From the NCBI GenBank assembly GCA_051362555.1, contig CM120644.1, positions 14,263,268 through 14,282,033 on the forward strand: 18,766 nucleotides of DNA, given 5' to 3'. Shown one piece after another: positions 812 to 18,293 of this stretch. Position 1 is the first letter of the stretch. Each line of letters opens with the position of its first letter. This stretch comes from Lingula anatina (Eukaryota > Animalia > Brachiopoda). A program made the position numbers and the translations under genes. Below the pieces are notes generated by a model. That model had not been told where the DNA came from. It saw only the letters and a program-made list of their open reading frames with translations, and made no database searches.

Positions 812-1130
812 GTTATAAAAGAATCCAAACTCGGATAGTTTAAGTTTAGATGTATTCATAGAAATCTAGGGACAAAATACTTACTGTTCAAATATAAAAT
901 AGTTGATAATCCGCATTGCAATTTATGTAGCACAATGATGGAAACAATTGAACATCTATTCGTAGATTGTGATCTCGCAAAAAAAAACTTGTGGAAGCAA
1001 ATCGAAAAGTGGTTTAGGGATGAAAAGGTTGTCAATATTCATATTTCTGCATCGGATATTATTCTTGGAAACAATGACGAGAAATTGAATTTTATTAATT
1101 TCCCAGGTAAAATAATACAATTACACTAAA
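812..1130 (+). pseudogene. Decayed 3' fragment of an L1/Tx1-like non-LTR retrotransposon ORF2 (zf-RVT CCHC region)
   Basis: The frame reads IKESKLG*FKFRCIHRNLGTKYLLFKYKIVDNPHCNLCSTMMETIEHLFVDC...LWKQIEKW. The CxxC...ETxEHLFxxC motif is typical of the RT-associated zinc finger; there is an in-frame stop at 836. Confidence 0.8.
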
Positions 1131-1721
1131 TCAAAAAAAAGGGGGACATCTGTCCTTTAGGGACATCGAATGCTATCTGTGTTAGAAAAAATATGCTGTG
1201 CTTATCAAAATATCTTATTTATAAATGAAAATGATGAGCCATCAGTAGTAGTTATGTGTGTATGTATGTATGTGTGAGAGAGAGAAGTAAGCGAGGGGTA
1301 ACAAAGAAGTATTGTATACTGTAATTTACATTTCTTAAGTTCAATAATAAAAAAGAATGAATATTGAATGTGTGCAACATGGAGACGGAAAGACATATAT
1401 TAAAATGAAAAATAAATTAAAATGGCTTTCTAGCCTTCCAGGGATAAGTTTAAGGTCTTTCTTAGCATATGATACCTAAAAAAAATAATATGTGTAAGCT
1501 TGAATGTGGGTGCCATATGCAATGAATCCATTGATAATTTAAATATGTTTTTAATTATTAACAGATTTCAGTGCAGTTTCTCTGTTTAAGGTTATATAGA
1601 TGAACAAGATTTAACTGTCATAGCCGCGTACTATATGAAGGTATTGTTGAAACTCTCCCACACCTGTTGAATTGTGTTTTACTCAAATGTTGAATTATAC
1701 TCCTTTTTCACCAGGGGTATA

Positions 1722-1754
1722 CAGTTTTGTGCAGAGAAAGTGACATTACGGATA
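1722..1754 (+). repeat. Left terminal inverted repeat (33 bp)
   Basis: 33/33 match to the reverse complement of 17525-17557; preceded by TA. Confidence 0.96.
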
Positions 1755-1780
1755 TGCTTACTCCAAAAACGATTAAGTAG

Positions 1781-1900
1781 TCTTACGTAGACTTACGTAC
1801 GCCCCTTAGGAGGAGAAAAGAATTGTGTGAAAATCCGTAACCTAAAGGACAATGCCGACTTACGTACATCTTACTCACATCTTACGTACATCTTACACAC
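1781..1900 (+). repeat. Subterminal short repeats (consensus ATCTTACGTAC), six copies; one inverted copy at 17498-17508
   Basis: CTTACGTAG 1782, CTTACGTAC 1792, 1859 and 1881, CTTACTCAC 1870, CTTACACAC 1892; GTACGTAAGAT near the right TIR. Confidence 0.8.
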
Positions 1901-2161
1901 ATGCAGCGATGAGTAAGAAGGGGTGGGTTTATGTAAATAGGGTGACGGCGGGGTGTTTCTCGCCTTGCGGCATCACAACCATGTGTGAAAAGAGGCGTGA
2001 TATATGATCCCACCTAATTATGGGTCTTTAAATCGTCCTCTGGTACGCTGCGGCGCGACCCAAACATGACTTTGACCAGGTTAGAATGTGAAGTTTAAGA
2101 ATTTACATTGATTTTTTTATTTCTTGTACATGATACGTCTGTCAACGAGTCGGTGTGTCGC

Positions 2162-2197
2162 GGCTGGCGATACGTCACGGTATTGTGGTCTATAATA
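2162..2197 (-). promoter_or_regulatory. Possible core promoter TATTATAGA ... ATCGCCAGCC facing the left TIR
   Basis: Minus strand TATAGA begins at 2194; the A of TCGCCAG is at 2165 (29 nt later). Confidence 0.35.
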
Positions 2198-3336
2198 GTG
2201 CAGGTCCAATTTCCCGCTCACTGTGATGCAACCCAGGCGTAACTTTGATTTAAGTTAGTGCTTTTACAAAAGTGGGACTAACTTTATGATTATGGCCATT
2301 CAACTGTATAACATGAGAACAAATATTTAGCCAAAAGAAAGTCAAATAACGCTTTCGTGTAAAAAAAAACGTGCTTGTCATCCTGGCTGTGAAGTTACGC
2401 CTTTTTATTTAAAGGGAGTGGGTGTATCCAGGCTGAAACAGACTCTCCTGTCTCAATGATCAAATGCCATTTAATTCGCAATGTGCGGATTTCTGAGGGC
2501 ACATTCTTAAGATTAGGTACAATGCCGACTTATGCACATAACACGAACATCTTATTCAGGTAAAGCGACGACAGGAGGGGCTGTGGTTATGCAAAGCGTG
2601 AAATGAGGCGTGATATACTTTAGTTCGATTGATTGTGGGCCAATAAAATAAAAAAGGTAATGTACCCTGCTCCGCTGTGACGAGGCCAATACTGTGCACT
2701 TTTTAGCTATCCGTTTAAGTACATGTCTCCTTGATCAAAACAAATTCAATACAGTGAAGAATAGAAAAGGCATTAAATTGACAAACACAAGTACCCTGTA
2801 CGATGTTCGAAATTTGGCCGATGAAGGCCGCTTTTATTGTGAATCCCTCTAATAAAGGAAGTAATTTTAGAGGCTAAAATTGAATAATTGTGACAGTGCC
2901 TAATTACGTAACTTTTACGTCTAAAAAAACTTTATTTTATATATAATTCCCAAACAACAGTGCAGACGTTCTAATTTGTGGGGTTGCAAAGAGGCCGAGA
3001 AGAAAAACTCCGAACAACGACCGGACGAAGCACCTCGGTGGAGTTTGAAATAAAGGATAAGCTAATTAGCAAATTGGTGGACGGCAGATAAGCTGCGGCG
3101 TGCTACCCAACCCTACTCCCTTTTTGAGGGAGGGGGGGGTACACTCTTTTCCTTACGATAAACAGGCCTTACAGCGAGGAGTAGAGCTCTCCATTCTGCC
3201 ATCCCTAGTTAGAGAAATTTAGATGTTGAAGAAATTTCAAATGTGCCCGCCCGGTCTTTTATGAATTAGATCGGCCAATACTTACCTAACTGATTTCCTG
3301 AAATAAAAGGTATTAATTAGGTAATCACAAATAACT

Positions 3337-3477
3337 GGTCCGCATGTCTTGCTAGACCGAAAAAGTAACACAATGGAATGAATGATAAACAAAAAAATGG
3401 GTAGAAGGAGAGAATCTGCATGTCTTGCTAGATCTCTGGGAAGATAGGAAATATGAGGTCCGCATGTCTTGCTGGAC
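3337..3477 (-). repeat. Three copies of an AGCAAGACATGC(A/G)GA motif downstream of the BEN stop codon
   Basis: Plus-strand GGTCCGCATGTCTTGCTAGAC (3337), GAGAGAATCTGCATGTCTTGCTAGATCTC (3408) and ATGAGGTCCGCATGTCTTGCTGGAC (3453). Confidence 0.9.
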
Positions 3478-3494
3478 TTCAAAAATACACTTTA

Positions 3495-4877
3495 CTAATT
3501 TTGGTTGCCCGCTCTTAAATTTCTATTTGCAGTGTTCATGGCAGAAACCATTTTTGCCCAAAAGTTCTTGTTTAGTCTCTGTTGCTCCGGATAGTAACGT
3601 CCAACAGCATTTCTTATATATTGAATTCTGTTCCTGTCCAACGGACTCCTAATGTCTCCCCCTCTCTTTGATCCTTCCACATTCTTTGTGGGGTCCGTTC
3701 TCTCCTCCCTGCTGAAGAGCTGCCCCATTAGCTTCACGCAAAAATTGGTCGCCCCCGTAGAATTTTGTTTTAGGATAAGGAGCTCGTTCTCAGTGGGGAA
3801 TAACGTACGGGTCTGGGGAGGGTGGCCTTGAGAACGAGCCGGGGCAGGGGCAGGGGCAGGGGCAGGGACTGGGTATGGGTAGTGTGGAGGGAAAGGGAAG
3901 GGGGCATGGGGGTGTGCTCCTTGTATGTCAAAAAATGGGGGCTGGGGATATGCAGGGAAAGGTGGTGGGCTAGGAAAAGCAGGGGGAGGTGGGGGAGATG
4001 GGAGGGGGCTGTCTAAATTCAAACGGGATACAGGGGGCGGTGTCCCATAGTCGGTGGCTGCGGAAGGGGGGATCAGTCTGGTGGTGGTGGCAGGAGGGGT
4101 CGGTCTGGCGGTGGATGTGGTAGAGGGGGTCGGTCTGGAGGTGGAGGTGGTGGCCTGGAGAGACGGTCTAGTGGCGGTGGCGGCGGCAGGGGGGGGTGGT
4201 CTGGTGGCGGGGAAGATGGCAGGAGGGTTTGATCTGGTGGATGTGGTGGCAGGGGGGGTCGGTCTGGCGGTGGATGTGGTGGCAGGGGGGGTCGATTTGG
4301 CGGTGGATGTGGTGGCAGGGGGGGTCGGCCTGGAGGTGGATGTGGTGGCAGGGGGGGTCGGTCTGGCGGTGGATGTGGTGGCAGGGGGGGTTGGTCTGGC
4401 GGTGGATGTGGTGGCAGGGGGGGTCGGTCTGGCGGTGGATGTGGTGGCAGGGGGGGTCGGCCTGGAGGTGGATGTGGTGGCAGGGGGGGTCGATTTGGCG
4501 GTGGATGTGGTGGCAGGGGGGGTTGGTCTGGCGGTGGATGTGGTGGCAAGGGGGGTTGGTCTGGCGGTGGATGTGGTGGCAGGGGGGGTTGGTCTGGCGG
4601 TGGATGTTGTGGCAGGGGGTGGTGGTCTGGAGATGGAGGTGGTGGCAGGGGGGGTGCTGGGGGTGGAGGTGGTGGCAGGGGGGCTGCTGGGGGTGGTAGG
4701 GGGGGCTCCCAAAATTTGGTGAAGCAACTCTTCATGTCGCAGGAGTTTCTCGAATATCTTATCAATGGAATCTTGAAGTTTCACCAGAGCCGGTCTGCAC
4801 TCACACCGCAGAGGTGGGGGAAGCTGGGGTGTATTGTCATGTCCACCGGCTGGGCCAGATGAAATGCGAGTTGCCTG
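3495..4877 (-). CDS. Terminal exon of the BEN-domain gene (coiled coil, Pro/Thr repeats, BEN domain at about 3510-3790)
   Basis: Long open frame in the ORF track, entered through a TTTGCAG/CAG (NAGNAG) acceptor at 4880-4875; stop TAA at 3497-3495. Confidence 0.88.
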   Translation of the reverse strand, partial: QATRISSGPAGGHDNTPQLPPPLRCECRPALVKLQDSIDKIFEKLLRHEELLHQILGAPPTTPSSPPATTSTPSTPPATTSISRPPPPATTSTARPTPPATTSTARPTPLATTSTARPTPPATTSTAKSTPPATTSTSRPTPPATTSTARPTPPATTSTARPTPPATTSTARPTPPATTSTSRPTPPATTSTAKSTPPATTSTARPTPPATTSTRSNPPAIFPATRPPPPAAATATRPSLQATTSTSRPTPSTTSTARPTPPATTTRLIPPSAATDYGTPPPVSRLNLDSPLPSPPPPPAFPSPPPFPAYPQPPFFDIQGAHPHAPFPFPPHYPYPVPAPAPAPAPARSQGHPPQTRTLFPTENELLILKQNSTGATNFCVKLMGQLFSREERTDPTKNVEGSKRGGDIRSPLDRNRIQYIRNAVGRYYPEQQRLNKNFWAKMVSAMNTANRNLRAGNQN

Positions 4878-5343
4878 CTGCAAATTAGAAACATTTATTT
4901 AATGTTTTTTATTTGAACTCGTTTTTAAATATGGACATGGAAACAAAACTGCAGCTATGACGCAACCCCATTTGTCGTTTCATGTTCAAGGACACATTTT
5001 TACCTCAATACTGAATTAATCTCGACATTTTTAATCATACCCTCCGTTACTTATAAATATTTCAAGCTGGTGTCATAGACTCGTTGTTCTTGTGTAAGAT
5101 TCTCTTTAGTACTCACCTTTCGGCCCACTGCCTTCTTTTTAGTTTTTTGTTTCTTTGGTGGTCTTTCCCCCTCTTCTTCACCAGTTTGATCCTGAAAGAA
5201 CCCAAGCCGTAAACAGCAGTATTATTATTATTATTATTATTATTATCATTATTATTATTATTATACAGAACGAGAAAAAGTGAACAACTGCAATTGTGCA
5301 GCCTCTTAGGTAAAAATCACATATAATATATACTTGTATATAC

Positions 5344-5377
<34 letters not shown>

Positions 5378-8300
5378 GAAATCAAATTAGACGGCCCTCA
5401 CCTGTCGTCTCACTTGCTTCTTTCGCCTCACTTCCTTCGTCACCTCCGTCTCCGCCCTCACCTCCTCCTCGTCAGTTTGATTCTGAAAAACGACAATTAA
5501 ATAAATAAATGAACAAATGAATTTGTCTCTCTTTCCGTTTTATGTATGTACGAAGACAGTTCGCTAAATTAAACTTGAAAAAATAACGAATTAACTGTGA
5601 TGGGCATTAGAATGTTTTCAGTTGTCGTGTATAGCTTTTCAATAAGCTGACCATTTCTTTCTTTTTCTTTTCTATTTTGCTGTGGTAAATTGATGTCGTG
5701 TGCACGATTTTTGTCAGTGCACGGTGCTCACCTGCTCTTCCTCCACCTCCCCTTCCTCCTCCTCTGAGCTTCCAGAACTGTCAGTTTCATTGGCATAAAA
5801 CCTTTCCATTGCCATGTGTTCTGACACGGAATCTGAAAGAGGACAAAAAGAACATGGCTGGTTGTAAGTCAGGCACGTCGGCGGGTGGGGGAGGCGTTCG
5901 TCTGGTAAATTTGATAATGGTACAAAAAGGTTTCATGATGAAGGGTCCGCTTTTCAGAAAAAGAACCTTACTTTGAAATTGCTGAGAAATGTCAACGTGT
6001 GCATACGGGACAACTCGTGAAGCGACGTACAATATGAAATTAACATGTTATTCGTACAGTTTTTGGGCATCATGAACCCTTGTTAATTTCTTTAATTATT
6101 TATATTGATAGTTATCGTGGTATGGTTTTCTTGTCAGTGAGTCAGCACGCAGTACAGACTAATGGTGACTTACTTGTTGTGTGAAGAACCATTCCTTCGA
6201 CCTCCCCCAGATCCTTCCACTGGACCCTTACTCGTACACCCTGTACGATTTTCTCATCGGCCGTCAGTTCGATCGTCTTCAGGCCGGACACTGTATTATC
6301 CTGCCATCGAACGACAGCGAAGGTATCTGGAAAGAATTAAGGGTATGCGAGATTAGAAAAACATACTCATAAATGATTATAAATTTAACTCTAACTTGGC
6401 AAAATATGATTGTGTTCCGGTATTCTACAGACGCATCGCCCAATATTATAAGCGACTAACGAAAATGAATCTAGTGATGCTAAATGTAAATGGGATTGGG
6501 GGGGGGGGGGGGGGGGGTCCGCGGATGCGAAGTGTTTTAGAGGGCGAGTAACAGTAAATGTATGCAACTTTTTGTGTCGATAAAATTACATAATTTTTAT
6601 TTCCTTTTTTTCTATAATTTTTTTATCAAACCATTCTCAAAATCAATACCAACAGAGACTACCAGGATGCCCAGTCAATCCTTAGGCCTACCCTCGCCAG
6701 CAGTTATGCACGCGATTCTTAGTTATGTACGGCATTTTTTTCAAACAACTTGTTTTTCTAGCTCCGCTGACTTTAATATTGCCAAAGAAGGAAAAAATAT
6801 ATATAAAATTGAAACCAAAAATAATTTGTTTTTTTTCACCGACGTCCGACTGATCATACTCTTCAATCGGAATAACATAAACGCGAAAACTCCTAGTAAG
6901 TTTAACGGCACTCTCACGTCACATGACTGCCTACAAGTTAAACGAAGGCCATTTGTACCAAGGTAAACGCTTGGTTCATTTCCTCGAGCTTCCGGTTTTT
7001 AAGCCAATCAGTACTTCGTTGATATTTTACATTACACGTACGACTACATGTGGTATTAATGCAAAATGGCGGGAAAGTGTGCTGGAGTAGCCGTCTTGAC
7101 TTAAGCAGGAATTTCACCTCTGTTGTGTGGCTCACTTTATAGTGAAGGAGGGACCAAAATTATTATGCAAAATGGTCTGTCCGACCAGTGTTACAGATGT
7201 TTTAGGCAATTTTACTCACTGCTTTCTGTCGGAAATGAACATCAACTGCACAACTTGCGTCACGTGTGGAGTGTTTCAAAGGGGGAACAGCAGAGTAAAG
7301 AGCACAAAGCATGTTTGTTTATTATTATTTTGTAATTTACAAGAATGATTCGTAGAATTGACATTTATTTTGACAAATAAAATAATAAAAAGAAATTGCT
7401 GTTTTTGTTTCTCTGTTTTAGTTCTTACTATTGTCTAATGTTAAAAGTCATGATTTTGAAAAATGTCTTTCATTTTTCACCCCCTCCGACCTCCAAAAAA
7501 ATATTGTTTAACAAACAATAAATTAAATAAAAACTGCCCAACACTCGCTGTATAGTGTGGGTGATGTATTGTCACCATTGCATGGCTGTTGCTCACTAGT
7601 TTTTTCTGAATCTGGAAGCATGTGCCACCAGATTCGCCTGATGGACATGCCACCAGACTGGCGATCTTGTGAGAAGCAGCGCTTTATATAGGTTTGGGAC
7701 TGACCTTTGACCTGATGTACAATGTAACTCTCATTGGGTAGTGCGAATGACGCAATGTCTAGAAAGCATTGCATGGTGTCTGGTGAGTGGATTGTAACTA
7801 AGTCTTCTTGCTTTCCTTTTTTTTTTCATGTGACGGAATATGTACCCCCAGAAAATGTTGAAGAGCATATGGATCACTTATACATTTACAGGTATACTAT
7901 GTCCTCGCTTTTATGTAACTTAGCGACTGCACTGAGGATAATTTGTTGATTGGTGGTTATTATCGCTAGAACTTAGAAGTATTTAAACAAGAATCAGTTT
8001 TAACATCAACTTGAATTTTAAGTGTTCCTCTCGAGTTAACGCTGTTGCTTGACTACTCCCACAGGCTTTAAGTGTGAATTTCACTGTAACAGTACCTTTG
8101 TTAAACGCAAAAATTACAGGCCGTTCATAATTGGGGGGGGGGGATGGGGGGGGGGGAGCAACCTTCCGCATGCAATTTGTTAATTGATACAGTCATGCAT
8201 ATTTGATTTTATTGCTTTTACTTATGCAATATGTTTAATTAGTATATTATTTATCTTTGTTTTTTTACACCAATTAACATAAGTTTAAAAAATGTTTTAC

Positions 8301-10923
8301 ACATTTTCTTTTGACAGCCTGTTGACATTGTCCTGCCATCTCAGGGAAGACGCAGTAGTGGACGTTCTGGCGAACCTTTATTAGACTTAGAGTCACCTTG
8401 GGGCAGTCCCCCATAACAATTGTGCTTCTTGGGCTTGGCAATCTCATTCAGTTTTGTAGGAGAGGATGATTTGCACCAGTGGATTGACAAGTATTGACAA
8501 TCGACATTTCAGTCACACTAAACTACTGGCATGTTGTACCACACTTATTCTAAGATTGCTGAATTATCATTACTGTCTTAGGAGACCCTAGATCTCTCAA
8601 CCAGAAGAAGAGATACAGCTGTAAATTAGTTATAAGAGAAAACAACCCACTGTTGTGTATTTGGAAAAGATAACCTTGATTAGGCTTGATATTGGAGCTT
8701 GGGCTTGGAGATTCATAACTTGCTTTCACTCCTTTGAAAAGTAACTGCTTTGTTCTTTGTTCCTTTACTGTTGATAATATGATAATAAACACTCCTCTTG
8801 TCATTGTATGTTGCTGACTCTGTTTTAATTATCTTTTAAGAAAGAGAATATAGATATCAAGATTTCACATGTAGGCCTATTTACAAAGCCTTTGAATCAT
8901 TTGAACGCTAAAAGAATGGTTGAGAAATGCAATATATTAACTAGATTATGACATTAGGATGTGATGCAAATACAGTCCAGACAAGGGGCAAAGGAAGTCA
9001 GTACATGTATGGTGTACAGTACCGGACACTAAAGAGGTGTTAATAGTAATCCGTAATTATGCCGTTTCTGTAGCACATCCCACCCTCCTCGATGTTATCT
9101 TGCTAACTACATGTAGACAATAGGCGATCCTATTTAGCGAAGTTTAATTTTATGACTCGTGTTATTTTTATCCGTATAAACAACGAATGACTGTTGAACA
9201 GTTCAAGAATTTTTCAGTATTTTTCCTGCTATTACTGAGAAGAAAAAACAAAATTGTGAATCGAGTTAACAAGAAACCACGGCCGAATCCCGGGGTTAAG
9301 GGACGCGGAAGCAAAGCCGACCCCCCCCCCCCCCCACTCCCTACTGGGCGTTGGGTAAAAAAAAAAAAAGGGCGAACGGTGCCATTTGGTACGGTTAAGA
9401 ACTATGATTCAGCTAGTCTTAATTCCAACAACAGGGGACCAGAAATCTGAATGTCCGACCAAGCAAGTGTAAACATGTCGGTGTGGGACGATTTGGGGTT
9501 ATGCTTAGGCCTATATACCGTACAAATGTACAAGTTAACTTTGTAACTTTTGGTGTTTATAAAATAACATTATTCTTTATACTTACTTCACTTACTAATA
9601 CTTATATTATTTATCAAACTTTTCCTAATATCAAAACGGCAGAAACTACAATGATGTCCATTTACCCTCGCCTGCAGTTCTAAACGCGATTTTTCATTTA
9701 AAAATTGTGTAACGTCATTGAACAGTGCAAATGATGCAATGTCACCTGTGCATGGTAGGTAGTTACTGGATTATACTGAGTCTGTTGGTCCAGACAACAG
9801 ACTCGCCTGTTGGGCTGGACCAACAGACTGGCGAAAAAAGTTAATCCACCGCCTTTTATAGACCCCGGGTTCAAGTGTCCATGAACTTGGCCCATTGTGA
9901 GGCTCTTAATATCGGTGTTGTTTACTTTTCATTTTTAACCAGGAAGCAAAGATTGACTTCACGTTTTTTTTCTGTCTACCTTTATTTGAAGGAATATTTA
10001 ACCTTAGAAAATGTTGAAACGCAAATGGAGTGCTTATACATTTACAGGTATACTATGTTTAGGCCTATATATTTCTGCACATAATTTGTTAATTGGTGGT
10101 TATTATCACTAGGGAATCTCCAAACATGAATCAGTTTAAATTCCTATCAAGCTGAATTAAATTGAAAGTGTTTCTTTCAAGTTAACGCTGTCCCTGGTTC
10201 ATATCTTGTTCTGCTCCTTGACTACTGTCAGAGGCTTAAGGCGTGAATATCACTGTAACACTACCTTTGTTTAACGCACAATTACAGCACAGACATTATC
10301 GGTGGTTGGCTTATGGTGTACAATAGCCTACTAAAGAGGTGTTAATAGTAATCCGTAATTATGCCGTTTCTGTAGCACATCCCACCCTTCTCAATTTTAG
10401 TTTGCTATCTAGTCGATACCCTAAATACTTAGAGAAGTCTAACTTTATGAGTTTTTTTTACCGGTATAAGCAACGTCCGATCATGTGTAATGAACTTACA
10501 GATCACACCAGCAGCATAACAGTGTAAATTTTAACGGAACCTTATTTCTGTAATGTTTGAGTTAATTGGTGGTGGGCAGAGTCTTTTTATTCAATGATGA
10601 TGATAATAACTGTAGAAGTAGTGCTACTTTTAGTCGCACAAAAGCACATTCCTTAATTCTGTGATCTATTTTAGGATTAAGTTCTCGTATGTAAGCCAGA
10701 GCTGTGTTAAGTTATAAGAATGATGTGATTTTTTTCTTCAGGCAACAGCTAATATTGAGAAGATGTCCTGATAGACATCGTAATATTGGAGGTAAAACCT
10801 ATATCAAATATAAGCTGTTGTCTGAAGAAAAAAAATCACATCATTCTTAGGTTCTCGTATAGACCTATTTATTAACTGTACTACCGTTTACTTACCAACT
10901 TTGGACAGCTGGCGAGCAGACAT
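3495..10923 (-). CDS. BEN-domain protein (transposon cargo); predicted exons 10923-10896, 6326-6174, 5832-5732, 5482-5402, 5191-5117, 4877-3495 (about 606 aa)
   Basis: GT-AG exons join in frame: MSARQLSKVD/TFAVVRWQDNTVSG...VRVRVQWKDLGEVEGMVLHTTN/SVSEH...SSEEEEGEVEEEQ/NQTDEEEV...RRKKQVRRQ/DQTGEEEGERPPKKQKTKKKAVGRK/QATR... The C terminus (NFCVKLMGQLFSREE...NVEG...PLDRNRIQYIRNAV...FWAKMVSAMNTANR) fits the BEN-domain pattern. Exons 2-6 are well supported; exon 1 (ATG 10923, GTAAGT donor, matching phase 1) is less certain. Confidence 0.75.
4080..4680 (-). repeat. Coding 33-bp minisatellite (11-aa unit ARPTPPATTST), about 11 well-conserved copies at about 4240-4620 plus degenerate flanking copies
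   Basis: Plus-strand unit GGTCTGGCGGTGGATGTGGTGGCAGGGGGGGTC repeated head to tail with no spacers. Confidence 0.95.
5220..5264. repeat. (TAT)n microsatellite, intronic
   Basis: Directly visible. Confidence 0.95.
5347..5376. repeat. (TA)15 microsatellite, intronic
   Basis: Directly visible. Confidence 0.95.
7609..7659 (-). ncRNA. Candidate 51-nt hairpin RNA, copy A
   Basis: AGTCTGGTGGCATGTCCATCAG-GCGAAT-CTGGTGGCACATGCTTCCAGATT folds by hand into an approximately 22-bp stem (G-U pairs allowed, one mismatch, one bulge) starting at the predicted +1. Confidence 0.45.
7656..7690 (-). promoter_or_regulatory. Core promoter TATATAAA ... GATCGCCAGTC (hairpin unit A)
   Basis: Minus strand reads TATATAAAGCGCTGCTTCTCACAAGATCGCCAGTC; the predicted +1 A is at 7659, 31 nt from the first T. 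Confidence 0.6.
9779..9829 (-). ncRNA. Candidate 51-nt hairpin RNA, copy B
   Basis: AGTCTGTTGGTCCAG-CC-CAACAG-GCGAGT-CTGTTG-T-CTGGACCAACAGACT: a perfect 15-bp stem plus a 6-bp stem, starting at the predicted +1. Confidence 0.5.
9826..9860 (-). promoter_or_regulatory. Core promoter TATAAAA ... TCGCCAGTC (hairpin unit B)
   Basis: Minus strand reads TATAAAAGGCGGTGGATTAACTTTTTTCGCCAGTC; the predicted +1 A is at 9829, 31 nt from the first T. Confidence 0.6.
10715..10849. mobile_element. MITE-like palindrome (arms about 36 bp, TA at both ends)
   Basis: TAAGAATGATGTGATTTTTTTCTTCAGGCAACAGCT pairs with AGCTGTTGTCTGAAGAAAAAAAATCACATCATTCTTA. Confidence 0.65.
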
Positions 10924-11139
10924 CTCCGTGCTATAGATTTCCTCTAGGGATGATAAATTCACTAATGTCAGGTGTTGGTCTCGTATCGGCAGTTGCTGAT
11001 GCTGAGAAAGTACACTGTAAGTGTAAGCTAGTCTGTCCATCATCCCCCATTATATAATCTGCCGCAGGGAGCGTGATTGAAATCAAACTTGGCACATCTT
11101 GACAGTTTAAGTCGGACAAAAGATCTTCAGGTGATACTT

Positions 11140-12130
11140 TTAATTAGAGCTGCCATGTAAGCTAACAGTTTAATTAATGCAACGTACAGGTAAATTGAGA
11201 GTACCGATAAGATCAACTTCTTCCTATCTCTCCATCAGCGTATTTCTTCAGACTGCCTTTATTTTCGACCACTGTTTAACAAGGATAATTATCAATAGAA
11301 TAACATTGTATGGAGAAAGGATTTTTTATTCATTATTTTATTCACGAAAGAATAAGCAAACTGCTCGTTTCAGCAGAAAGATGGGAATATAAAACCATTA
11401 AGTTAAAATAAAGTTCTCAGAAAACTGCTTGCTTAAATCATTCCTTCAAGATACACGTGAACTAAATCTAGATTAAATAAGTTGTATGAATAATGTCATA
11501 AAATAATAATTGCTATATGAATATATGCCAGAAATGTCACTAATTGCGATAAATGAAATACATGTATTCTGATATAAATGCGAAAAAAAAAAAAAAAAAA
11601 AAAAAAGAAAAGAAAAAACAAAAGAAACATCCGCCGGCAGTAATAGGTGCTGGTGACAGCCCGTATCGTATGTATAACTTGAAAGAACAAGCTTACATGC
11701 ACCAAACAAAGCACAATTTAAAAAAAAAAATTGTAAAATATTTTTGGTAATGAAAGCCGGCCAGATTCCATGAAAACATTATATAACCATGCTGGCAGAA
11801 AAATGCAATAAAAACAGATTTGCAAGGTCAGCAAGTAGATGTAGTTATCGATAAAGGTTACATCTGACATAAATGAATTGCAGGAAAAAATGATAAAAAT
11901 TTTCACCACAATCAAAATAAGCCGTAAAGCCAAAATATCACATGAGGACAAAATTACAAGTAAATCGTGGCACTTCTTGACATCTTAAGTCGAACAAAAG
12001 ATTTTGGTCACACGTTTAATCAGAGCTTACCTGCATGGTAAGTTAGATTAATAACTCCAACGTACAGGTAGATTGAGATTTTCGATAAGATCACCCTCCC
12101 ATTTCTCCATCTCCGCATTTCTATAGACCG
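11140..12130. repeat. Diverged direct repeat of about 120 bp (about 11140-11255 and 12015-12130) in the intergenic region
   Basis: Both contain TTAAT.AGAGCT...CAACGTACAGGTA.ATTGAGA...CGATAAGATCA.C...TCTCCATC..CG.ATTTCT...AGAC. Confidence 0.8.
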
Positions 12131-12924
12131 TCCGATAAGATCTAAAGGGCCCTGGCACGTAGATTACACGCAATTACTACAATCGTTGATTATCTTCCTT
12201 AAATGCTTGCTTAAGCTCCGATCATACATTCTTTCGAGTCCATGTTCTTAGAAAATCCTTTTAAAATCCTTTCTACAAGCAGCTATAAAATAAAAACGCC
12301 TGTGCATTTTCTGATCGTTGTGCATTTCAAAATTTCCCAAACCAAAAACATATTAATTGGACAATGTTTGAATGTCTGTGACAAAGTGACAACTTAGGGA
12401 CAGAACATCCGAGAAGGCGTTTTGTTTATTGACTTAGATAGTAGGATGACTGGTTTTGTAGTCTATGATCATTGTGTGGATACATATAAATAATTGTGAT
12501 GGTATAATTATTTTGCCTGCAAGTACCTTCAGTTAAGGAAAATCCTAATCCTTAACTATGCTGTATTTCAATGGCTTAATACAAAAGCATTTTTTATGTG
12601 CTCGCTTCCGAACTGTTTTAAAGGTGTGGTTCATAAGTAAGACATTAATGTTACCAAAGATAACAGGTAAATTCAAATGAAGGTCTTCAAACTAATATGT
12701 AGAATCGTTTAATCCAGTTGCCGTTAGGATATTTTCTAACGAAATTGTAATGACGATAAGTGGGCGTTGATATTCGTCAGAAACCAGATGAGATCGGTGA
12801 TAAGAGATGGTGTGATTAGATAATGGGCGCGTGTTAAATGTTTAAGTCGTTTTAAGAATGGCTGTGGTCGCGAGTTTTTCGCTCCTTCATTACTGCTGGT
12901 GAAGCCATGGAACACGAGGTACTG

Positions 12925-12958
12925 TATAAAAACGCGGAAGGCAGCAGGATCGCCAGTC
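12925..12958 (+). promoter_or_regulatory. Transposase core promoter: TATAAAAA plus initiator-like GATCGCCAGTC
   Basis: TATA starts at 12925; the A of CAGT is at 12955 (30 nt later); the ATG in AAGATGC context is at 12976. Confidence 0.7.
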
Positions 12959-12975
12959 ACTGCCTATTCAACAAG

Positions 12976-15128
12976 ATGCCGTTCAACGAGTATGCTCGCC
13001 AGCGCGCCCTGAAGCTGCGAGAGGCTGGACTTGGTATAACAGCCATCAGGAGACAACTACGAGAGGAAGACGTCACCTGTTCACTAAGCTCGATATACAG
13101 GTAAGTGATTGGGACAGATCTTGCCCTTAGTGGAGCTATGTGTATTTACTCCGGTTTTAGCAAATAAAACTATATCATGAGTGACAGTGAATCTCCTGCT
13201 CTCTTCTTCAATCTCTCTTTTTTTCACCAAGGAACTCCAGACTTATAGTTTTTTTATAGAAATAAACGGATTATATGTAGATTTTCCCTTAAACCGCATA
13301 TTTCTTTTTGTACTAGCTCATTTTCTTTTTGGTCAAACGTTTTCTTTTAATACAACGACGCGTTTACAGAGCACTCTATCCCAATATTGTTTATTCTACA
13401 TGTATACATTGAACTGACAGAATTCGTATCTTTTCTAGGTTTTTTGTAAAACACAATGAAGGGTTTGGCCTTGCTGACCGGCCTAAACCAGGGAAACAGA
13501 CAACATTTACAGATGAGCACAGGGCCATCGTTGATGAAGAGATGGAGGCCAACCCTGAGCTCAGATCACATGAGCTTCGGGATATCCTGAGGGAACGTAC
13601 AGGTAATAATTATGTATTGATACCATTAAAATATTACCGTGGCGACCATCGCGCATCAAACGAAGGAAATGTTAGGAAATCTACTCCTCATTGAGCTAAA
13701 CAAGAGAAAGCACTTGGCACATAGTGGTTAACATACACCGTAATTTGTCAAATTGATTTTTTCATACAGTGAAGAAATAATAAATTATTGACTGAATGTT
13801 CATATAAATACCGCTCTTTTTCGTTCGTTTTAACAGGTCTGCTGGTGTCGTCCAGCGCTGTGCGGAGATTCAGGAAGAAGGTTGGCTGGGTGAAAAGTGC
13901 GAAGGGCTACTGCCAGCTTGTTAGAATTGTGAACCGTCCGAAAAGAGTGAACTGGTGCCGCGAGGCCCTGGCAGTAGAGGACAAGTTTGAGGACGTTGTG
14001 TTTTCTGGTAAGCAACAACCCACAGATCTTCATTAAAAAACCAACATGTACATGTATTGTTGTTTAAGATCTATTACCGGGTATTCCGCTCACTTTGTAA
14101 TCTACATGTATATATATTAGCACCGTTGTTAAAAAGGTACACAAAAATTCTTTCTTTTCTTGAATTTGCCTTTTGAGTTTCAAAATGTGTCTTATTTATC
14201 TTATTTGCGCATTCACTTCAGATGAGTGTACCGTGGAGATGGACACGAATGGTCGATACATTTTTCGGAAAGTTATCAGGGATGAAGACGGCAACGACAT
14301 TAGTCCGCCCCGCCCACTGCGCAGCAAACCGAAGCACCCCTACAAGGTCCATGTATGGGCAGGTGAGACGCTACAGTGAAATGTTTAATACTGTTGTGAT
14401 AAAAAGGGGTTATCTTTGCTTGTTGAAATGTAATGAATCAAAATTTAACAAGTGTAATTTAACACTCCGGGTCTGAAAACTAATTAGCCAAGATTGTGAC
14501 TAGGCTTTTAAAATAAAAGTGCATGTTCATGTAAACTAATGGACTGATATTATCTATTTCAGGCATTTCGCAAAGAGGCGCAACTCCCATCGTGACGTTT
14601 ACTGGCGCCATGAACAGCGAGGCTTACCAGGACATTCTTCGGGACACTCTGATTCCGTTTCTTCAAGAAAGGTAAGCGGAAATCAGCAATTAAAATAATT
14701 AAAGAGTCAGTATCGATTTAGAGTATGCATTGCCAATGTTTGTCCATCAGCTGAAAGTTCTGAAAATAGTAACACTTACGTATCTCTTCTGATTTAACCA
14801 CAGGCTTCCTCTGGGGCACAGGTTCCAGCAGGACAATGCGCCCATGCATACCAGCAGGTCGACGGCCACGTTCTTCGAGCAGCACAACATCAACTGGTTT
14901 AAGACGCCCCCCGAGAGCCCTGATCTGAACCCCATCGAGATGCTTTGGGCTGAGCTGAAGTATTTCATCAGGAACCGGGCGAAACCAAGAACGAAAGATC
15001 AACTGGTGGCTGCAATTGAGGAATTCTGGACAACCGTGGATCAGGCTAAGTGTATTAAGTATATAAACCACATTCAGAAAGTAATGCCCGAAGTAATTCG
15101 TGTCGAAGGCAGAGCCACAGGTTATTAA
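12976..15128 (+). CDS. Tc1-like DD34E transposase, 6 coding exons: 12976-13100, 13439-13602, 13837-14007, 14222-14362, 14563-14671, 14804-15128 (1035 nt, 344 aa)
   Basis: All five introns are GT-AG with compatible phases and no internal stop. The spliced protein has an HTH-like N terminus (ALKLREAGLGITAIRRQL...SLSSIYR), a DRPKPGK linker (GRPR-like), a second HTH (SSSAVRR), VVFSDE (first D), KHPYKVHVWAGIS, FQQDNAPMH (second D) and PPESPDLNPIEMLW (E), with 34 residues between the second D and E. Confidence 0.93.
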
Positions 15129-15262
15129 GTTACTGCCGTGTCTGTCCAGGTATTTTTAGGCTTTGACTTTGTAAATATGTACAATATTGTTTATGTGTTA
15201 TTTTTATGTAAATAGCTGTAGATTTTTTATAGATTATTTATATTTATTCTTTCATGTTGAAG

Positions 15263-15470
15263 GCCAGCAAGGCATGCGGCCCTCATTCCCCCCTTTTTTC
15301 CCGGAGATCTAGCAAGACATGCAGATTCTCTCCCACCCATTTCTTTTTATTTTAAAATGTTTTCCTTTCAATTGTCGTTACTTGTTGGGTCCAGCAAGAC
15401 ATGCGGACCTCATACCCACCCCCCCCCCCCCCTCGGAGATCTAGCAAGACATGCAGATTCTCTCCCACCC
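15263..15470 (+). repeat. Four copies (A-B-A-B) of the same AGCAAGACATGC motif downstream of the transposase stop codon
   Basis: CCAGCAAGGCATGCGGCCCTCAT (15264), GGAGATCTAGCAAGACATGCAGATTCTCTCCCACCC (15303 and 15435), GTCCAGCAAGACATGCGGACCTCAT (15389). Confidence 0.9.
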
Positions 15471-15680
15471 GTTTCGAACATCATACTTGTGTTTGTCACT
15501 TTATCGTTTCTTTTTTCGGCATCGTATTGAACTTTTCGATTAAGGAGACATAAAGATTATTTATATTTATTTTCTTTGTATATACTTTACTCTGTATTTA
15601 TTTTTATACACCAACATTGTATATATGTTATGTTTCATTTACATGTAAATATGTTTCGAATCATTATTTTATTTTACATT

Positions 15681-15720
15681 TATTTATATTTATATTTATA
15701 TTTATATTTATATATATTTA
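15681..15720. repeat. (TATATT)n simple repeat
   Basis: Directly visible. Confidence 0.85.
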
Positions 15721-16904
15721 GTGTAGTTTACAGTTTACAGCTTTACAATAAGGGGGACGATTGAATAGATCTACTCTCCTGTCGCGCCATCACCAGATTC
15801 TGTAATGGAAAGCGCTGCTGCATTTTTCGCAGGTTCGACGTCATTTTCATAACAGCATCCGGTGATGGGACGTCATAAGTGCAGATCTGTTCAAACTCTT
15901 TCTTACTGGTTGGGCATGTATAGATAGTGTATATATTTATCATATGTATGAAATTTTTAATTCAAATTTTTAATTTATAGAGCAGCGCTTAATTCCACTT
16001 TTTCGTGGCAGTGCCTTGGCTATTAGACGGACATGTCTCTGGCTTGGCCTGACTACAGGAACGTGAGTGTTGTTTTTAAATATGCAGATATGGGTAATCT
16101 CATAAAATTCCGCACCACCGGTGCATTCGGGGTATTGTGAAATTACCGTGACCCATTAACACTTAATCACCCTCTGCAGTGTGTCAGAAGGCATGTAATA
16201 CAACTGTAAGGTGAACGGCTATCTATTTCGATGTACAGTTTATAATGTTAAATTCTTAATCTGTAACTCTTATTATTAGCATATAGCCGTTTGTGTTATC
16301 AATCAGGCTCTGCAAAGGTTCTGCAACCTGAGGGTTCCTTCTGATCTGTGTTCTAAACCTATTATTGTTCCCCTGCAGTTATGACAAGTTATTTGCACAA
16401 AGAAATCTAACCTATCATTCCGTAATTTGACGTACGAGTCCATGTATTTTATTGTCGTCGTCTTAAAGTCCAATTGAGTAGTCCGCGCAGCTTCATAATT
16501 AAAAAAAAAAAGAATAACGTGTTTGGATAGATAACCCGGTCCCTGTTGTTCCTCATGATCTAAAAATAATGTTAAAAGGTTAGGGCAAAGCCAGGTTAAA
16601 CTGCAATGAATTATATGTTAAAAATTTATAATAGTGTGAGCATTTCAATGTAATAATTTGAGCTGAAATTGACACCTAGGAAAAACGTAAAATACGCCGT
16701 CTTATTTAGGTTATGTTTCCTTTATTTTCAACATTCAGAATCAACAACACATTGGGATTTTAAAATTTACAACACAATTTACAGCAAAAAAATGTAACTA
16801 TGTGCGCAGCAAAAATGCCTGTTGAAACAATTTTAGGAGTGACATTAAATTGTAACCGAGCCTTGAGAACCAAGACATCGTGAAGAAAGAAAATGCTATC
16901 TTAA

Positions 16905-17220
16905 ACCTAGGTTCCAACTACGTTTTTGACGCACGGTTTTTAGGTTCATTGCGTCCGTCTGGGACGTAGCTAAATCGCAGGGAAGGAATCAAGTAAAGCC
17001 TAGGTTGGGCTGCTTTGTGTGGTCTACGGCCAAAAGATGGGAAAACGTGGGAGTTCGTGCGTGAGGAATACGTCCATCGTGCGACTTTTGGAGGACACAA
17101 ACAGCACGTAGGAACTTTTTGACATGATCCAAAGCCGCTACGTGCGATCTTGCTACGTCCTAACCGGACGCAAGGAACCTAAAAACCGTGCGTGAAAAAC
17201 GTAGTTGTGGGGCCTAGGCT
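16905..17220. mobile_element. Nested MITE with about 65-70-bp TIRs, flanked by TTAA (Kolobok- or piggyBac-type target)
   Basis: CCTAGG...CAACTACGTTTTTGACGCACGGTTTTTAGGTTCATTGCGTCCGTCTGGGACGTAGC pairs with GCTACGTCCTAACCGGACGCAAGGAACCTAAAAACCGTGCGTGAAAAACGTAGTTG...CCTAGG; TTAA at 16901-16904 and 17221-17224. Confidence 0.8.
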
Positions 17221-17524
17221 TTAAATACTATCTGAAGGACGAACACGATGAAAGCGTGCCACATATAGATGAACAATGATTGTGTGCAGTCGGGCAGATA
17301 ATCAGATAAACGGCTGGGACTTGGGGGATGACAATTAAAGCTGTCACTCAGCAGCATCAGTAGTGGGAGAGGTGGTAATTAAGGCTGTCACTCATCACCT
17401 CAAACGAGGCAAACTCAACTTATTTCCCTAAACCCAGCTGACTTACTCTAAGCATTGTGTCCTATTGTGTTTACCCTGTAATTATGTGCAATTTGCGGTA
17501 CGTAAGATTAGGGTGGTTTATCCG

Positions 17525-17557
17525 TATCCGTAATGTCACTTTCTCTGCACAAAACTG
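17525..17557 (-). repeat. Right terminal inverted repeat (33 bp)
   Basis: TATCCGTAATGTCACTTTCTCTGCACAAAACTG followed by TA. Confidence 0.96.
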
Positions 17558-18010
17558 TAGTCACTATCCTGGATCTAATAACAAAATAATATAAACCTAT
17601 ATAAACCTGGCAGAAATTATGATAATAACCCGGATCTTTTCAGTGGGGGGAAATTGTGAATTTTACAGATACTTTCATTTTTTAAGTCTTAAATTGCTTA
17701 AAATTAGAACATTCCTTTTAAGTGGTAGAACGTACAAAATTAAAAGCAGGCTACTAAAGGAAAAGCACCACTTTAATGCAATATAGAAATATAATTTTGT
17801 GTTTATAAAATTTTTTATCTGAAAGTTTGATTAATTTTTCCCTTTGAAGTACCATAGAACATTGAAAATAAAAGGTGAAAAAATGGGGGGGGGCATATTT
17901 TGTAAGTATACCATCTATTTCTTTTTTTTTTTATATAAATATTAATTTATCCATTTCCCTGGCTGTTATTATTTGATTTGACCTTTTAAATTTTTTTTTT
18001 TACAGCTGAA

Positions 18011-18259
18011 ATGTGTGGAATTTGGGCAATTTTTGGCAGCGATGACGATGTGTCAAGGCAGTGCAGCAGCTGCCTGAAAATCGCTCATCGTGGTCCTGAT
18101 GCTTTCCGCATTGAAAATGTCAACCACTTCAAGAACTGCTGCCTCGCCTTTCATCGTCTGGCCATCGTGGACGACATTTATGGTATGCAGCCAATGAGGG
18201 TCCACGCTTTACCTCACTTATGGATGATCTATAATGGAGAGATTTATAACTGCAAACTG
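18011..18259 (+). CDS. ASNS: Asparagine synthetase (glutamine-hydrolysing), first coding exon (83 aa); gene continues beyond the window
   Basis: MCGIWAIFG...AHRGPDAFR...FHRLAIVD...GMQPM...YNGEIYN is the Ntn/class II glutamine amidotransferase N terminus of animal ASNS. Acceptor TTTTACAG at 18005 and donor GTGAG at 18260. Confidence 0.96.
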
Positions 18260-18293
18260 GTGAGCTTTTATGTTTCCTGTAATATCTCTGTTG

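What the first reader, a model, noticed from the sequence alone, without database searches (positions are those of the whole stretch)
1720..17559. Giant two-gene Tc1-like transposon: spliced DD34E transposase plus BEN-domain cargo gene within perfect TIRs
Seen: identical 33-bp TIRs 15.8 kb apart, TA on both outer sides, an uninterrupted DD34E transposase and a second intact multi-exon gene in divergent orientation. Known: typical animal Tc1/mariner elements are about 1.3-2.5 kb and encode only a transposase; accessory DNA-binding genes are characteristic of other superfamilies (for example the Myb/SANT protein of PIF/Harbinger). Inference: this is a recently mobile, unusually large Tc1 lineage with a dedicated BEN-domain partner, possibly undescribed.
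Basis: partly seen in the sequence, partly recalled or inferred. Interest (0 to 1): 0.92.

Follow-up and report, generated by a model that had tools for sequence, protein, structure and literature searches.

The report
Tc1 transposon carrying a BEN gene
This is an intact 15.8-kb cut-and-paste jumping gene of the Tc1 kind that carries, back to back with its transposase, a second intact gene for a predicted DNA-binding chromatin protein, likely a dedicated helper that a coral-type relative also seems to carry, a pairing I did not find described for Tc1 elements.

Summary
Identical 33-bp TIRs (1722-1754, 17525-17557) with TA outside both enclose a six-exon, 344-aa DD34E transposase and a divergent six-exon, 606-aa gene (predicted Tudor-like N-terminus, coiled coil, P/T linker, C-terminal BEN domain). 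Public runs show a multi-copy family, one other insertion flank, ~90%-identical sister BEN copies, and one sample whose flank contig leaves the window sequence at the insertion point (empty-site-like; letters not shown). Three Lingula proteins share the partner's design. One of two close animal-type relatives (L001, coral-like) has a head-to-head gene with a probably homologous N-terminus (hhalign 73%); its BEN domain is not visible. 'Giant' is misleading: 18% is coding, the rest introns, duplications and nested repeats. No reads on the BEN coding part in the one RNA run laid. Best reading: a Tc1 lineage with a chromatin helper that likely binds the element's own end repeats or promoter (untested). 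Intron-bearing Tc1 (TLEWI) and multi-ORF ITm elements (Tec, TBE; L31 recalled) are known. Earlier notes of this scan found Tudor-BEN partners in CACTA/CMC elements of other genomes, none in Tc1. New variant of a known kind; interest 0.62.

The parts
1720..1721 (.). TA, left target-site copy
   Evidence: a contig of run X8 begins exactly at 1720
1722..1754 (+). left TIR, 33 bp
   Evidence: identical to the right TIR
1782..1902 (+). subterminal repeats CTTACGTA (4 copies here, 1 inverted at 17499); candidate binding sites, untested
   Evidence: 5 of 6 matches in the window lie within 170 bp of the ends
2723..2839 (.). piece of a separate high-copy repeat nested in the element (similar piece inverted at 15484-15551)
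   Evidence: self-BLAST; high depth with loose ends on both sides in all three DNA runs
3334..3482 (-). three bulged stem-loops behind the partner's stop codon, in mRNA sense
3495..4877 (-). partner exon 6: coiled coil, 33-bp tandem array (4084-4683) coding a P/T/A linker, proline-rich stretch, BEN domain, stop
   Evidence: Pfam PF10523; tandem array; homolog P0057; BEND3 best PDB match, E 0.0014
5117..5191 (-). partner exon 5 (basic, NLS-like; label from inspection)
   Evidence: GT-AG, frame kept
5402..5482 (-). partner exon 4
   Evidence: GT-AG, frame kept
5732..5832 (-). partner exon 3 (helix after the Tudor-like domain, acidic stretch)
   Evidence: aligns to P0057
6174..6326 (-). partner exon 2: four-stranded, predicted Tudor-like domain
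   Evidence: 54% identical to P0057 over 52 aa; model pLDDT 73.5; top three fold matches are hybrid Tudor domains, Z 5.2-6.3
7609..7690 (-). TATA-initiator-hairpin unit, copy 1, inside partner intron 1
9779..9860 (-). TATA-initiator-hairpin unit, copy 2, inside partner intron 1
10715..10849 (.). small inverted-repeat element (MITE-like) in partner intron 1
10896..10923 (-). partner exon 1 (start codon, MSARQLSKV)
   Evidence: matches the N-terminus of P0057 and P0114; phase-1 GT donor
10924..12975 (.). head-to-head promoter region with a diverged duplication (11090-11253 / 11968-12128) and a TATA box 30 bp before an initiator-like motif at 12955
   Evidence: promoter function inferred
12976..15128 (+). 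DD34E transposase gene; exons 12976-13100, 13439-13602, 13837-14007, 14222-14362, 14563-14671, 14804-15128
15257..15465 (+). four bulged stem-loops behind the transposase stop codon, same motif as behind the partner
16901..17224 (.). MITE-like insertion with 65-82 bp inverted arms
17525..17557 (-). right TIR, 33 bp
17558..17559 (.). TA, right target-site copy

Best explanation
The stretch is one intact Tc1-family cut-and-paste transposon with two spliced genes head to head, and the second gene likely encodes a dedicated helper that is predicted to bind the element's own DNA and would keep it open and regulate its transposase. Shown: TIRs, TA flanks, both open reading frames, BEN domain, multi-copy family, a second insertion flank. 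From established knowledge of Tc1/Sleeping Beauty: the transposase binds the TIRs with its N-terminal helix-turn-helix region, cuts with the DD34E centre and inserts at TA. Inferred: the BEN domain binds the CpG-containing repeats just inside the TIRs or the shared promoter, the coiled coil oligomerises it, and the Tudor-like domain contacts chromatin, so that the protein works like TnpA of En/Spm (recalled), protecting the element from silencing and tuning transposase output. The shared 3' stem-loops would co-regulate the two mRNAs.
For: Both frames intact with canonical introns. Partner design conserved at 54% (BEN) and 54% (N-terminal domain) in Lingula P0057, with two more Lingula copies on other scaffolds, one 97% identical in the N-terminal domain: dispersed multi-copy, as expected of a transposon gene. 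L001, in the same transposase clade (SH-aLRT 95), has a head-to-head spliced gene whose family aligns from Met1 with the window/Lingula family (hhalign 73%, pairwise E 3e-5; 4, 30 and 1 of 1000 shuffles score as high for the three sequences) and has a phase-1 intron at the same place. Runs X1 and X8 hold BEN-exon contigs identical to the window plus ~90%-identical sisters; X5 has no depth at 3595-3679 and a flank contig that leaves the window at 1719; 8 RNA reads show the TIR at another TA flank. Both genes carry the same 3' stem-loop in sense, 3 and 4 copies, 3 of 8 pairs with changes on both sides. CTTACGTA clusters at both ends; L001's right end has 6 CGCG-core palindromes, the core bound by the BEN protein BANP (PMC11472053 passages). 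CpG observed/expected is about 0.9 in most of the element's non-coding parts against 0.55 in both flanks.
Against: No binding, regulation or effect on transposition was tested. Zero of 43 laid RNA reads fall on the BEN coding part 3510-3835 (run X14, 6% of the run read). L002, the other close relative, shows no partner between its left TIR and transposase or in 0.76 kb downstream. The BEN domain of the L001 gene is beyond the contig end and none of the coral-type hits is long enough to show one. Direct pairwise tests of L001 exon 1 against the window exon failed and the cross-family HMM hits are above the inclusion threshold (E 1.7-2.6). No genomic context for the Lingula genes. The X5 contig departs at 1719, two bases before the expected 1721, and its loose letters were not printed. 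CpG ratio is low (0.48) in the last partner exon and 0.69 in intron 1.
Confidence: 0.5

Rival explanations
1. Same two-gene element, but the partner acts at integration: it guides or tethers the transpososome to chromatin targets, as the Myb-like protein of Harbinger does (recalled).
For: Tudor-like reader plus DNA-binding domain fits a tether; this copy sits just upstream of the first coding exon of a housekeeping gene.
Against: Tc1 transposases work alone (established); both flanks seen are plain TA sites; L002 appears to lack the partner.
Confidence: 0.15
2. The BEN gene is a passenger: a gene captured from another transposon (for example a CACTA/CMC element) or from the host, carried along without a role for the Tc1 element.
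For: Tudor-BEN genes are noted in CACTA/CMC elements by earlier notes of this scan (unchecked); no RNA reads on the BEN exon; the element also holds several nested repeats; cross-phylum linkage rests on one contig.
Against: Intact six-exon frame; same 3' stem-loops behind both genes; sister subfamilies keep the BEN exon; same head-to-head layout in L001.
Confidence: 0.22
3. The partner acts on the host rather than on the element, for example as a germline transcription or boundary factor that favours carriers.
For: BEN proteins are repressors, activators and boundary factors (PMC8887127, PMC11472053 passages).
Against: Repeats with BEN-type cores sit at the element's own ends; no host target known.
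Confidence: 0.08
4. The two TIRs belong to separate small elements or the BEN gene is an independent nested element, and the 15.8-kb unit never moved as a whole.
For: Short derivatives with the same ends are abundant (end depth far above interior depth); no second full-length copy was seen.
Against: Only one left-type and one right-type end in the window; no inner TIR pair around the BEN gene; X8 contigs identical to the window from the TIR to the BEN exon at similar depth (110-146); X5 lacks them and its flank contig runs on into other sequence.
Confidence: 0.05

Closest known systems
Tc1 family of IS630-Tc1-mariner transposons (Tc1, Sleeping Beauty, Minos; DD34E)
   Same: DD34E transposase of about 340 aa, TIRs of about 30 bp starting CAGT, TA target; profile matches SB100X at E 8e-37 against Mos1 at 4e-4.
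   Different: Typical members are ~1.3 kb with one ORF (PMC7325037 passage); this one is 15.8 kb, has five introns in the transposase and a second six-exon gene.
TLEWI, Tc1-like elements with introns of bivalves (bioRxiv 10.1101/656579; parts 1-2 of 4 read)
   Same: Spliced Tc1-like transposase of 3-6 exons; lengths up to 11,460 bp; marine invertebrate hosts.
   Different: TLEWI are DD36E with a YQDNDSKH motif, 81-89 aa between D1 and D2, and mostly lack TIRs; here DD34E, QQDNAPMH, 92 aa, perfect TIRs. No second gene in the parts read.
Ciliate Tec and TBE elements (PMC7325037 passages)
   Same: DD34E ITm elements with extra ORFs.
   Different: Extra ORFs are a recombinase (Tec) or a zinc-finger protein and a small ORF (TBE); other TIRs and hosts.
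L31 elements of bivalves and hexacorals with ORF2 (ORF2 recalled; papers not in the library)
   Same: Two-gene ITm elements in the same host groups.
   Different: L31 is DD37E and lies outside the Tc1 family (PMC7325037 passage); its ORF2 is not recalled as BEN.
En/Spm (CACTA) TnpA and PIF/Harbinger Myb-like protein (recalled); animal CACTA/CMC elements with Tudor-BEN genes
   Same: Transposase plus a separate DNA-binding helper, head to head, with repeats inside the ends.
   Different: Unrelated transposase superfamilies, ends and target duplications; here the helper rides a Tc1 transposase.
BEN-domain proteins BEND3, BANP, NACC1
   Same: BEN domain, best solved-structure match BEND3; coiled coil plus BEN as in BANP (PMC11472053 passage).
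   Different: Single C-terminal BEN behind a Tudor-like domain; encoded inside a transposon.

Membership tests
Tc1 family (ITm) | DD34E catalytic triad | tested here: met
   D154, D247, E282
Tc1 family (ITm) | Transposase closer to Tc1-like than to mariner | tested here: met
   SB100X E 8e-37, Mos1 E 4e-4; DDE_3
Tc1 family (ITm) | Short TIRs flanked by TA | tested here: met
   second flank also at TA
Tc1 family (ITm) | TA duplicated on insertion (empty site has one TA) | tested here: inconclusive
   X5 contig departs at 1719; loose letters not printed
Tc1 family (ITm) | Placement inside the Tc1 clade with named reference elements | not testable with these tools
   tree has no named references; the FASTA supplements of PMC7325037 are unreadable
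Tc1 family (ITm) | Typical anatomy: single intronless ORF, 1-3 kb (a rule, not a definition) | tested here: not met
   two spliced genes, 15,836 bp
TLEWI | Spliceosomal introns in the transposase | tested here: met
   five GT-AG introns
TLEWI | DD36E and YQDNDSKH motif | tested here: not met
   DD34E, QQDNAPMH
TLEWI | TIRs mostly absent | tested here: not met
   perfect TIRs
L31 | DD37E signature | tested here: not met
   DD34E; of 56 homologs 29 are DD34E, 23 DD35E, 1 DD30E, 3 unscored, none DD37E
L31 | ORF2 homology | not testable with these tools
   papers and sequences not held
HvSm (DD34E) | Membership of the HvSm clade | not testable with these tools
   alignment is a picture, sequences unreadable; described lengths 1.7-2.8 kb
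BEN domain proteins | Pfam PF10523 above cut-off | tested here: met
   30.5 bits against 23.2
BEN domain proteins | Sequence-specific DNA binding | not testable with these tools
   some BEN domains do not bind DNA specifically (BEND3 BD1, PMC8887127 passage)
Tudor-like domains | Tudor fold | tested here: inconclusive
   top three VIA matches RBBP1, ARID4B, JMJD2C Tudor at Z 6.3, 6.0, 5.2 (rmsd 2.1-2.5, 46-47 aligned), below the Z 8 the tool calls safe; no Pfam hit; Foldseek nothing at E 0.001

The most novel reading that the evidence does not exclude
An old, undescribed two-gene Tc1 lineage of marine invertebrates (corals, a brachiopod, this host) carries a Tudor-BEN chromatin helper, the same kind of module that rides CACTA/CMC elements, so that unrelated transposon superfamilies share a portable anti-silencing gene; the lineage also controls its mRNAs by 3' stem-loops, borrowing the histone stem-loop in corals and using a private repeated hairpin here.
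Probability: 0.5. Interest if true: 0.78.

Novelty: new variant of a known kind. Interest (0 to 1): 0.62.

Why it matters
Animal Tc1 elements are the textbook one-gene transposons and the source of Sleeping Beauty. [quoted passage not shown] It would also support the idea that the many lineage-specific BEN genes of animals spread on transposons, and it explains mis-annotated host genes (the Lingula homologs are filed as 'proteoglycan 4', 'SETD1B-like' and 'histone H3.v1').

Tried and rejected
No whole genome is held, so copies could not be counted in an assembly. No RNA holder was listed by the run search. Splicing and transposase expression were not examined with reads; only 1300-3835 was laid. 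A third protein gene in 10600-12500: frames are interrupted, the duplication looks non-coding, and the one conserved peptide there proved to be partner exon 1. The 2723-2793 / 15484-15551 inverted match as an element-specific inner repeat: rejected, it is a separate high-copy repeat. The 3' repeats as p53 sites: spacing does not fit the recalled consensus. Rfam on the window: 5 matches, all far below gathering scores. BEN relatives in viral contigs: 0 of 57 candidates; coral-type N-terminus in viral contigs 0 of 44 and in prokaryote genomes 1 weak match of 44, not followed; coral-type TIR in viral contigs 0; viral transposase matches were all distant (29 loci). No BEN or N-terminal-domain match in the ORFs of the 109 loci then held, with the two-sequence profiles. 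Single-sequence fold of P0058 was uninformative (pLDDT 42). P0020 (699 aa) is not a BEN fusion. Atlas searches gave unnamed clusters only; two clusters of the same size and length appear near both the Lingula and L001 domains, which the tool rates as weak. No complex was predicted, as no binding between the proteins is claimed.
Full report
OBSERVATION. The ends are as described: 33 identical bases at 1722-1754 and, inverted, 17525-17557, with TA outside each. Thirty shuffles of the window gave at most 16. The transposase has six exons, five GT-AG introns, 344 aa, and D154-D247-E282. A search with its last exon gave 56 hits among 744 candidates; the best align over the whole protein at 41-46%; the named ones are from amphioxus, sea anemones, a limpet and bivalves. 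A profile of the window exon and 19 homologs matches Sleeping Beauty far better than Mos1. In a quick tree of 51 rows (56 hits cut to those of 290 aa or more, plus L001 and 10 distant loci; careful search unfinished) the window protein sits in a 20-row DD34E group (SH-aLRT 95) inside a 41-row group (99). No named reference elements were in the tree.

THE SECOND GENE. Six exons on the minus strand give 606 aa with one stop at the end. The last exon ends in a BEN domain (Pfam 30.5 bits, cut-off 23.2; best solved match BEND3). A search with the BEN region found 1 protein among 63 candidates, Lingula P0057, which shares the whole design and whose N-terminus located the 28-bp first exon across a 4,569-bp intron. 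Two more Lingula homologs lie on other scaffolds. Exon 2 folds as four strands (pLDDT 73.5, three sequences) and its top three matches are hybrid Tudor domains at Z 5.2-6.3: a lead, not proof. Coding sequence is 18% of the element; the rest is introns, diverged internal duplications and nested repeats. The element lies about 450 bp upstream of the first coding exon of an asparagine-synthetase-like gene (GATase hits; the gene name is recalled), probably in a 5' intron (inferred from the acceptor before that exon).

MOBILITY. Four runs were laid on 1300-3835 (the tool showed only part of its tables and warns that depth is no copy number). In X8 a contig starts exactly at the TA of 1720, and contigs identical to the window cover 1720-1871, 3197-3424 and the BEN exon at depth 110-146, against 86 for both flank alleles together, which suggests more than one identical copy. 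X1 and X8 also hold BEN pieces about 90% identical, so sister subfamilies keep the domain. Depth near the ends is about ten times the interior: short derivatives are common. X5 has no depth at 3595-3679 and mostly diverged pieces elsewhere; its flank contig aligns over 1499-1719 and goes on for 51 unlike letters. That is what an empty site would give, but the letters were not printed and the break is two bases early. Eight RNA reads of X14 join a right-type end at TA to a different flank: a second insertion of the family. None of the 43 laid reads falls on the BEN coding part. CpG observed/expected is 0.54-0.55 in the flanks and 0.86-0.98 in five of seven element segments, 0.48 and 0.69 in the other two, consistent with a recent arrival in methylated DNA.

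IS THE PAIRING GENERAL? L001 has an intronless transposase and, 290 bp upstream and head to head, a spliced gene. A profile search of 1.84 billion proteins gave 27 hits, 9 of them repetitive and dropped, 2 the seeds, 1 the third Lingula protein and 15 first exons like L001's, one named from the coral Pocillopora. The coral-type and window-type families align from the first methionine (MSxRQL), with hhalign probability 73% and pairwise E 3e-5, and share a phase-1 intron after the domain. Against this: pairwise tests failed, the cross-family HMM scores stay above the inclusion threshold, and no BEN domain can be seen for the coral gene. L002 has a left TIR 1.15 kb before its transposase and no partner in view. 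So linkage outside the window rests on 1 of 2 loci.

HOW IT LIKELY WORKS. Transposition is ordinary Tc1 cut-and-paste into TA (established knowledge; triad, TIRs and TA shown). For the partner I commit to a cis-acting chromatin helper (0.5): BEN domains bind short motifs, often with CpG or CATG cores, and oligomerisation through a coiled coil sharpens BANP's choice of unmethylated sites (PMC11472053, PMC8887127 passages). Here 5 of 6 CTTACGTA copies lie within 170 bp of the ends, oriented with the TIRs, and the right end of L001 has six CGCG-core palindromes (that this end belongs to the L001 element is inferred). The seven repeats behind the two stop codons are all in mRNA sense and fold as the same bulged hairpin; 46 of 48 cells pair and 3 of 8 pairs change on both sides, though only 6 distinct related rows were counted and two of five shuffle measures are unremarkable. 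They tie the two genes to one design and are more likely RNA signals than BEN sites. Rivals: integration tether 0.15, passenger 0.22, host-directed factor 0.08, separate elements 0.05.

KNOWN AND NEW. It works like a Tc1 element and meets the tests I could run. It is not TLEWI (DD36E, no TIRs; bioRxiv 10.1101/656579, parts 1-2 of 4 read) and not L31 (DD37E; ORF2 recalled). Tec and TBE have extra ORFs of other kinds (PMC7325037 passages). HvSm could not be tested because the supplements with sequences are unreadable. Ten literature searches, judged from listings, showed no Tc1 or mariner element with a BEN gene; a review of giant transposons has no occurrence of Tc1 or mariner (PMC6431247 passages); passages of PMC10379824, PMC9233729 and bioRxiv 10.1101/2022.10.13.512200 added nothing on this. 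The original BEN paper is not held, subscription journals are missing, and Repbase and Dfam were not checked. Earlier notes of this scan report Tudor-BEN partners in CACTA/CMC elements and other helpers in pogo and protist ITm elements, none in Tc1; these notes are unchecked.

VERDICT. Real, young and intact; a new variant of a known kind. Interest 0.62; 0.78 if the cross-phylum Tudor-BEN Tc1 lineage is confirmed (probability 0.5).

Noticed in passing
L001:2236-2281 and L002:3846-3891: Both coral-type relatives carry a histone mRNA 3' stem-loop about 25-30 nt behind the transposase stop (Rfam RF00032, 37.1 and 33.2 bits, gathering 34). It suggests histone-like, cell-cycle-coupled 3' processing of transposase mRNA; untested.
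   Followed up: partly
window 9779-9860 and 7609-7690, minus strand: Two diverged copies of a TATA box (-31), an initiator-like CCAGTC and a 51-nt hairpin starting at +1 (z -7.1 and -5.3) inside partner intron 1; the transposase promoter has the same TATA-TCGCCAGTC spacing. Possible alternative first exons or small capped hairpin RNAs; no Rfam match.
   Followed up: partly
window 3334-3482 (-) and 15257-15465 (+): Seven copies of one bulged stem-loop in the 3' regions of both genes; no AATAAA on the plus strand between the transposase stop and the right TIR.
   Followed up: partly
window 6900-7090: Cluster of promoter-like motifs (YY1-, CCAAT-, ETS- and E-box-like; labels recalled) in partner intron 1 with no ORF assigned.
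   Followed up: no
window 17990-18260: First coding exon of an asparagine-synthetase-like host gene, about 450 bp from the right TIR.
   Followed up: no
window 839-1350: 3' remnant of a LINE (zf-RVT) with a microsatellite tail; repeats of another element at 1-560.
   Followed up: no
window 16901-17224 and 10715-10849: Two MITE-like inverted-repeat insertions inside the element.
   Followed up: no
P0027-P0052 (tree): A sister clade of ~378-aa, mostly DD35E transposases with a C-terminal extension in bivalves and a limpet; not matched to a named family here.
   Followed up: no
L002:1980-2045: A short possible exon (MARKSEEE...) between the left TIR and the transposase, same strand, unexplained.
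   Followed up: no
P0020: Actinostola gene model joins a transposase to 400 unrelated residues, perhaps a recombinase-like fragment (impression only); probably an annotation fusion.
   Followed up: no
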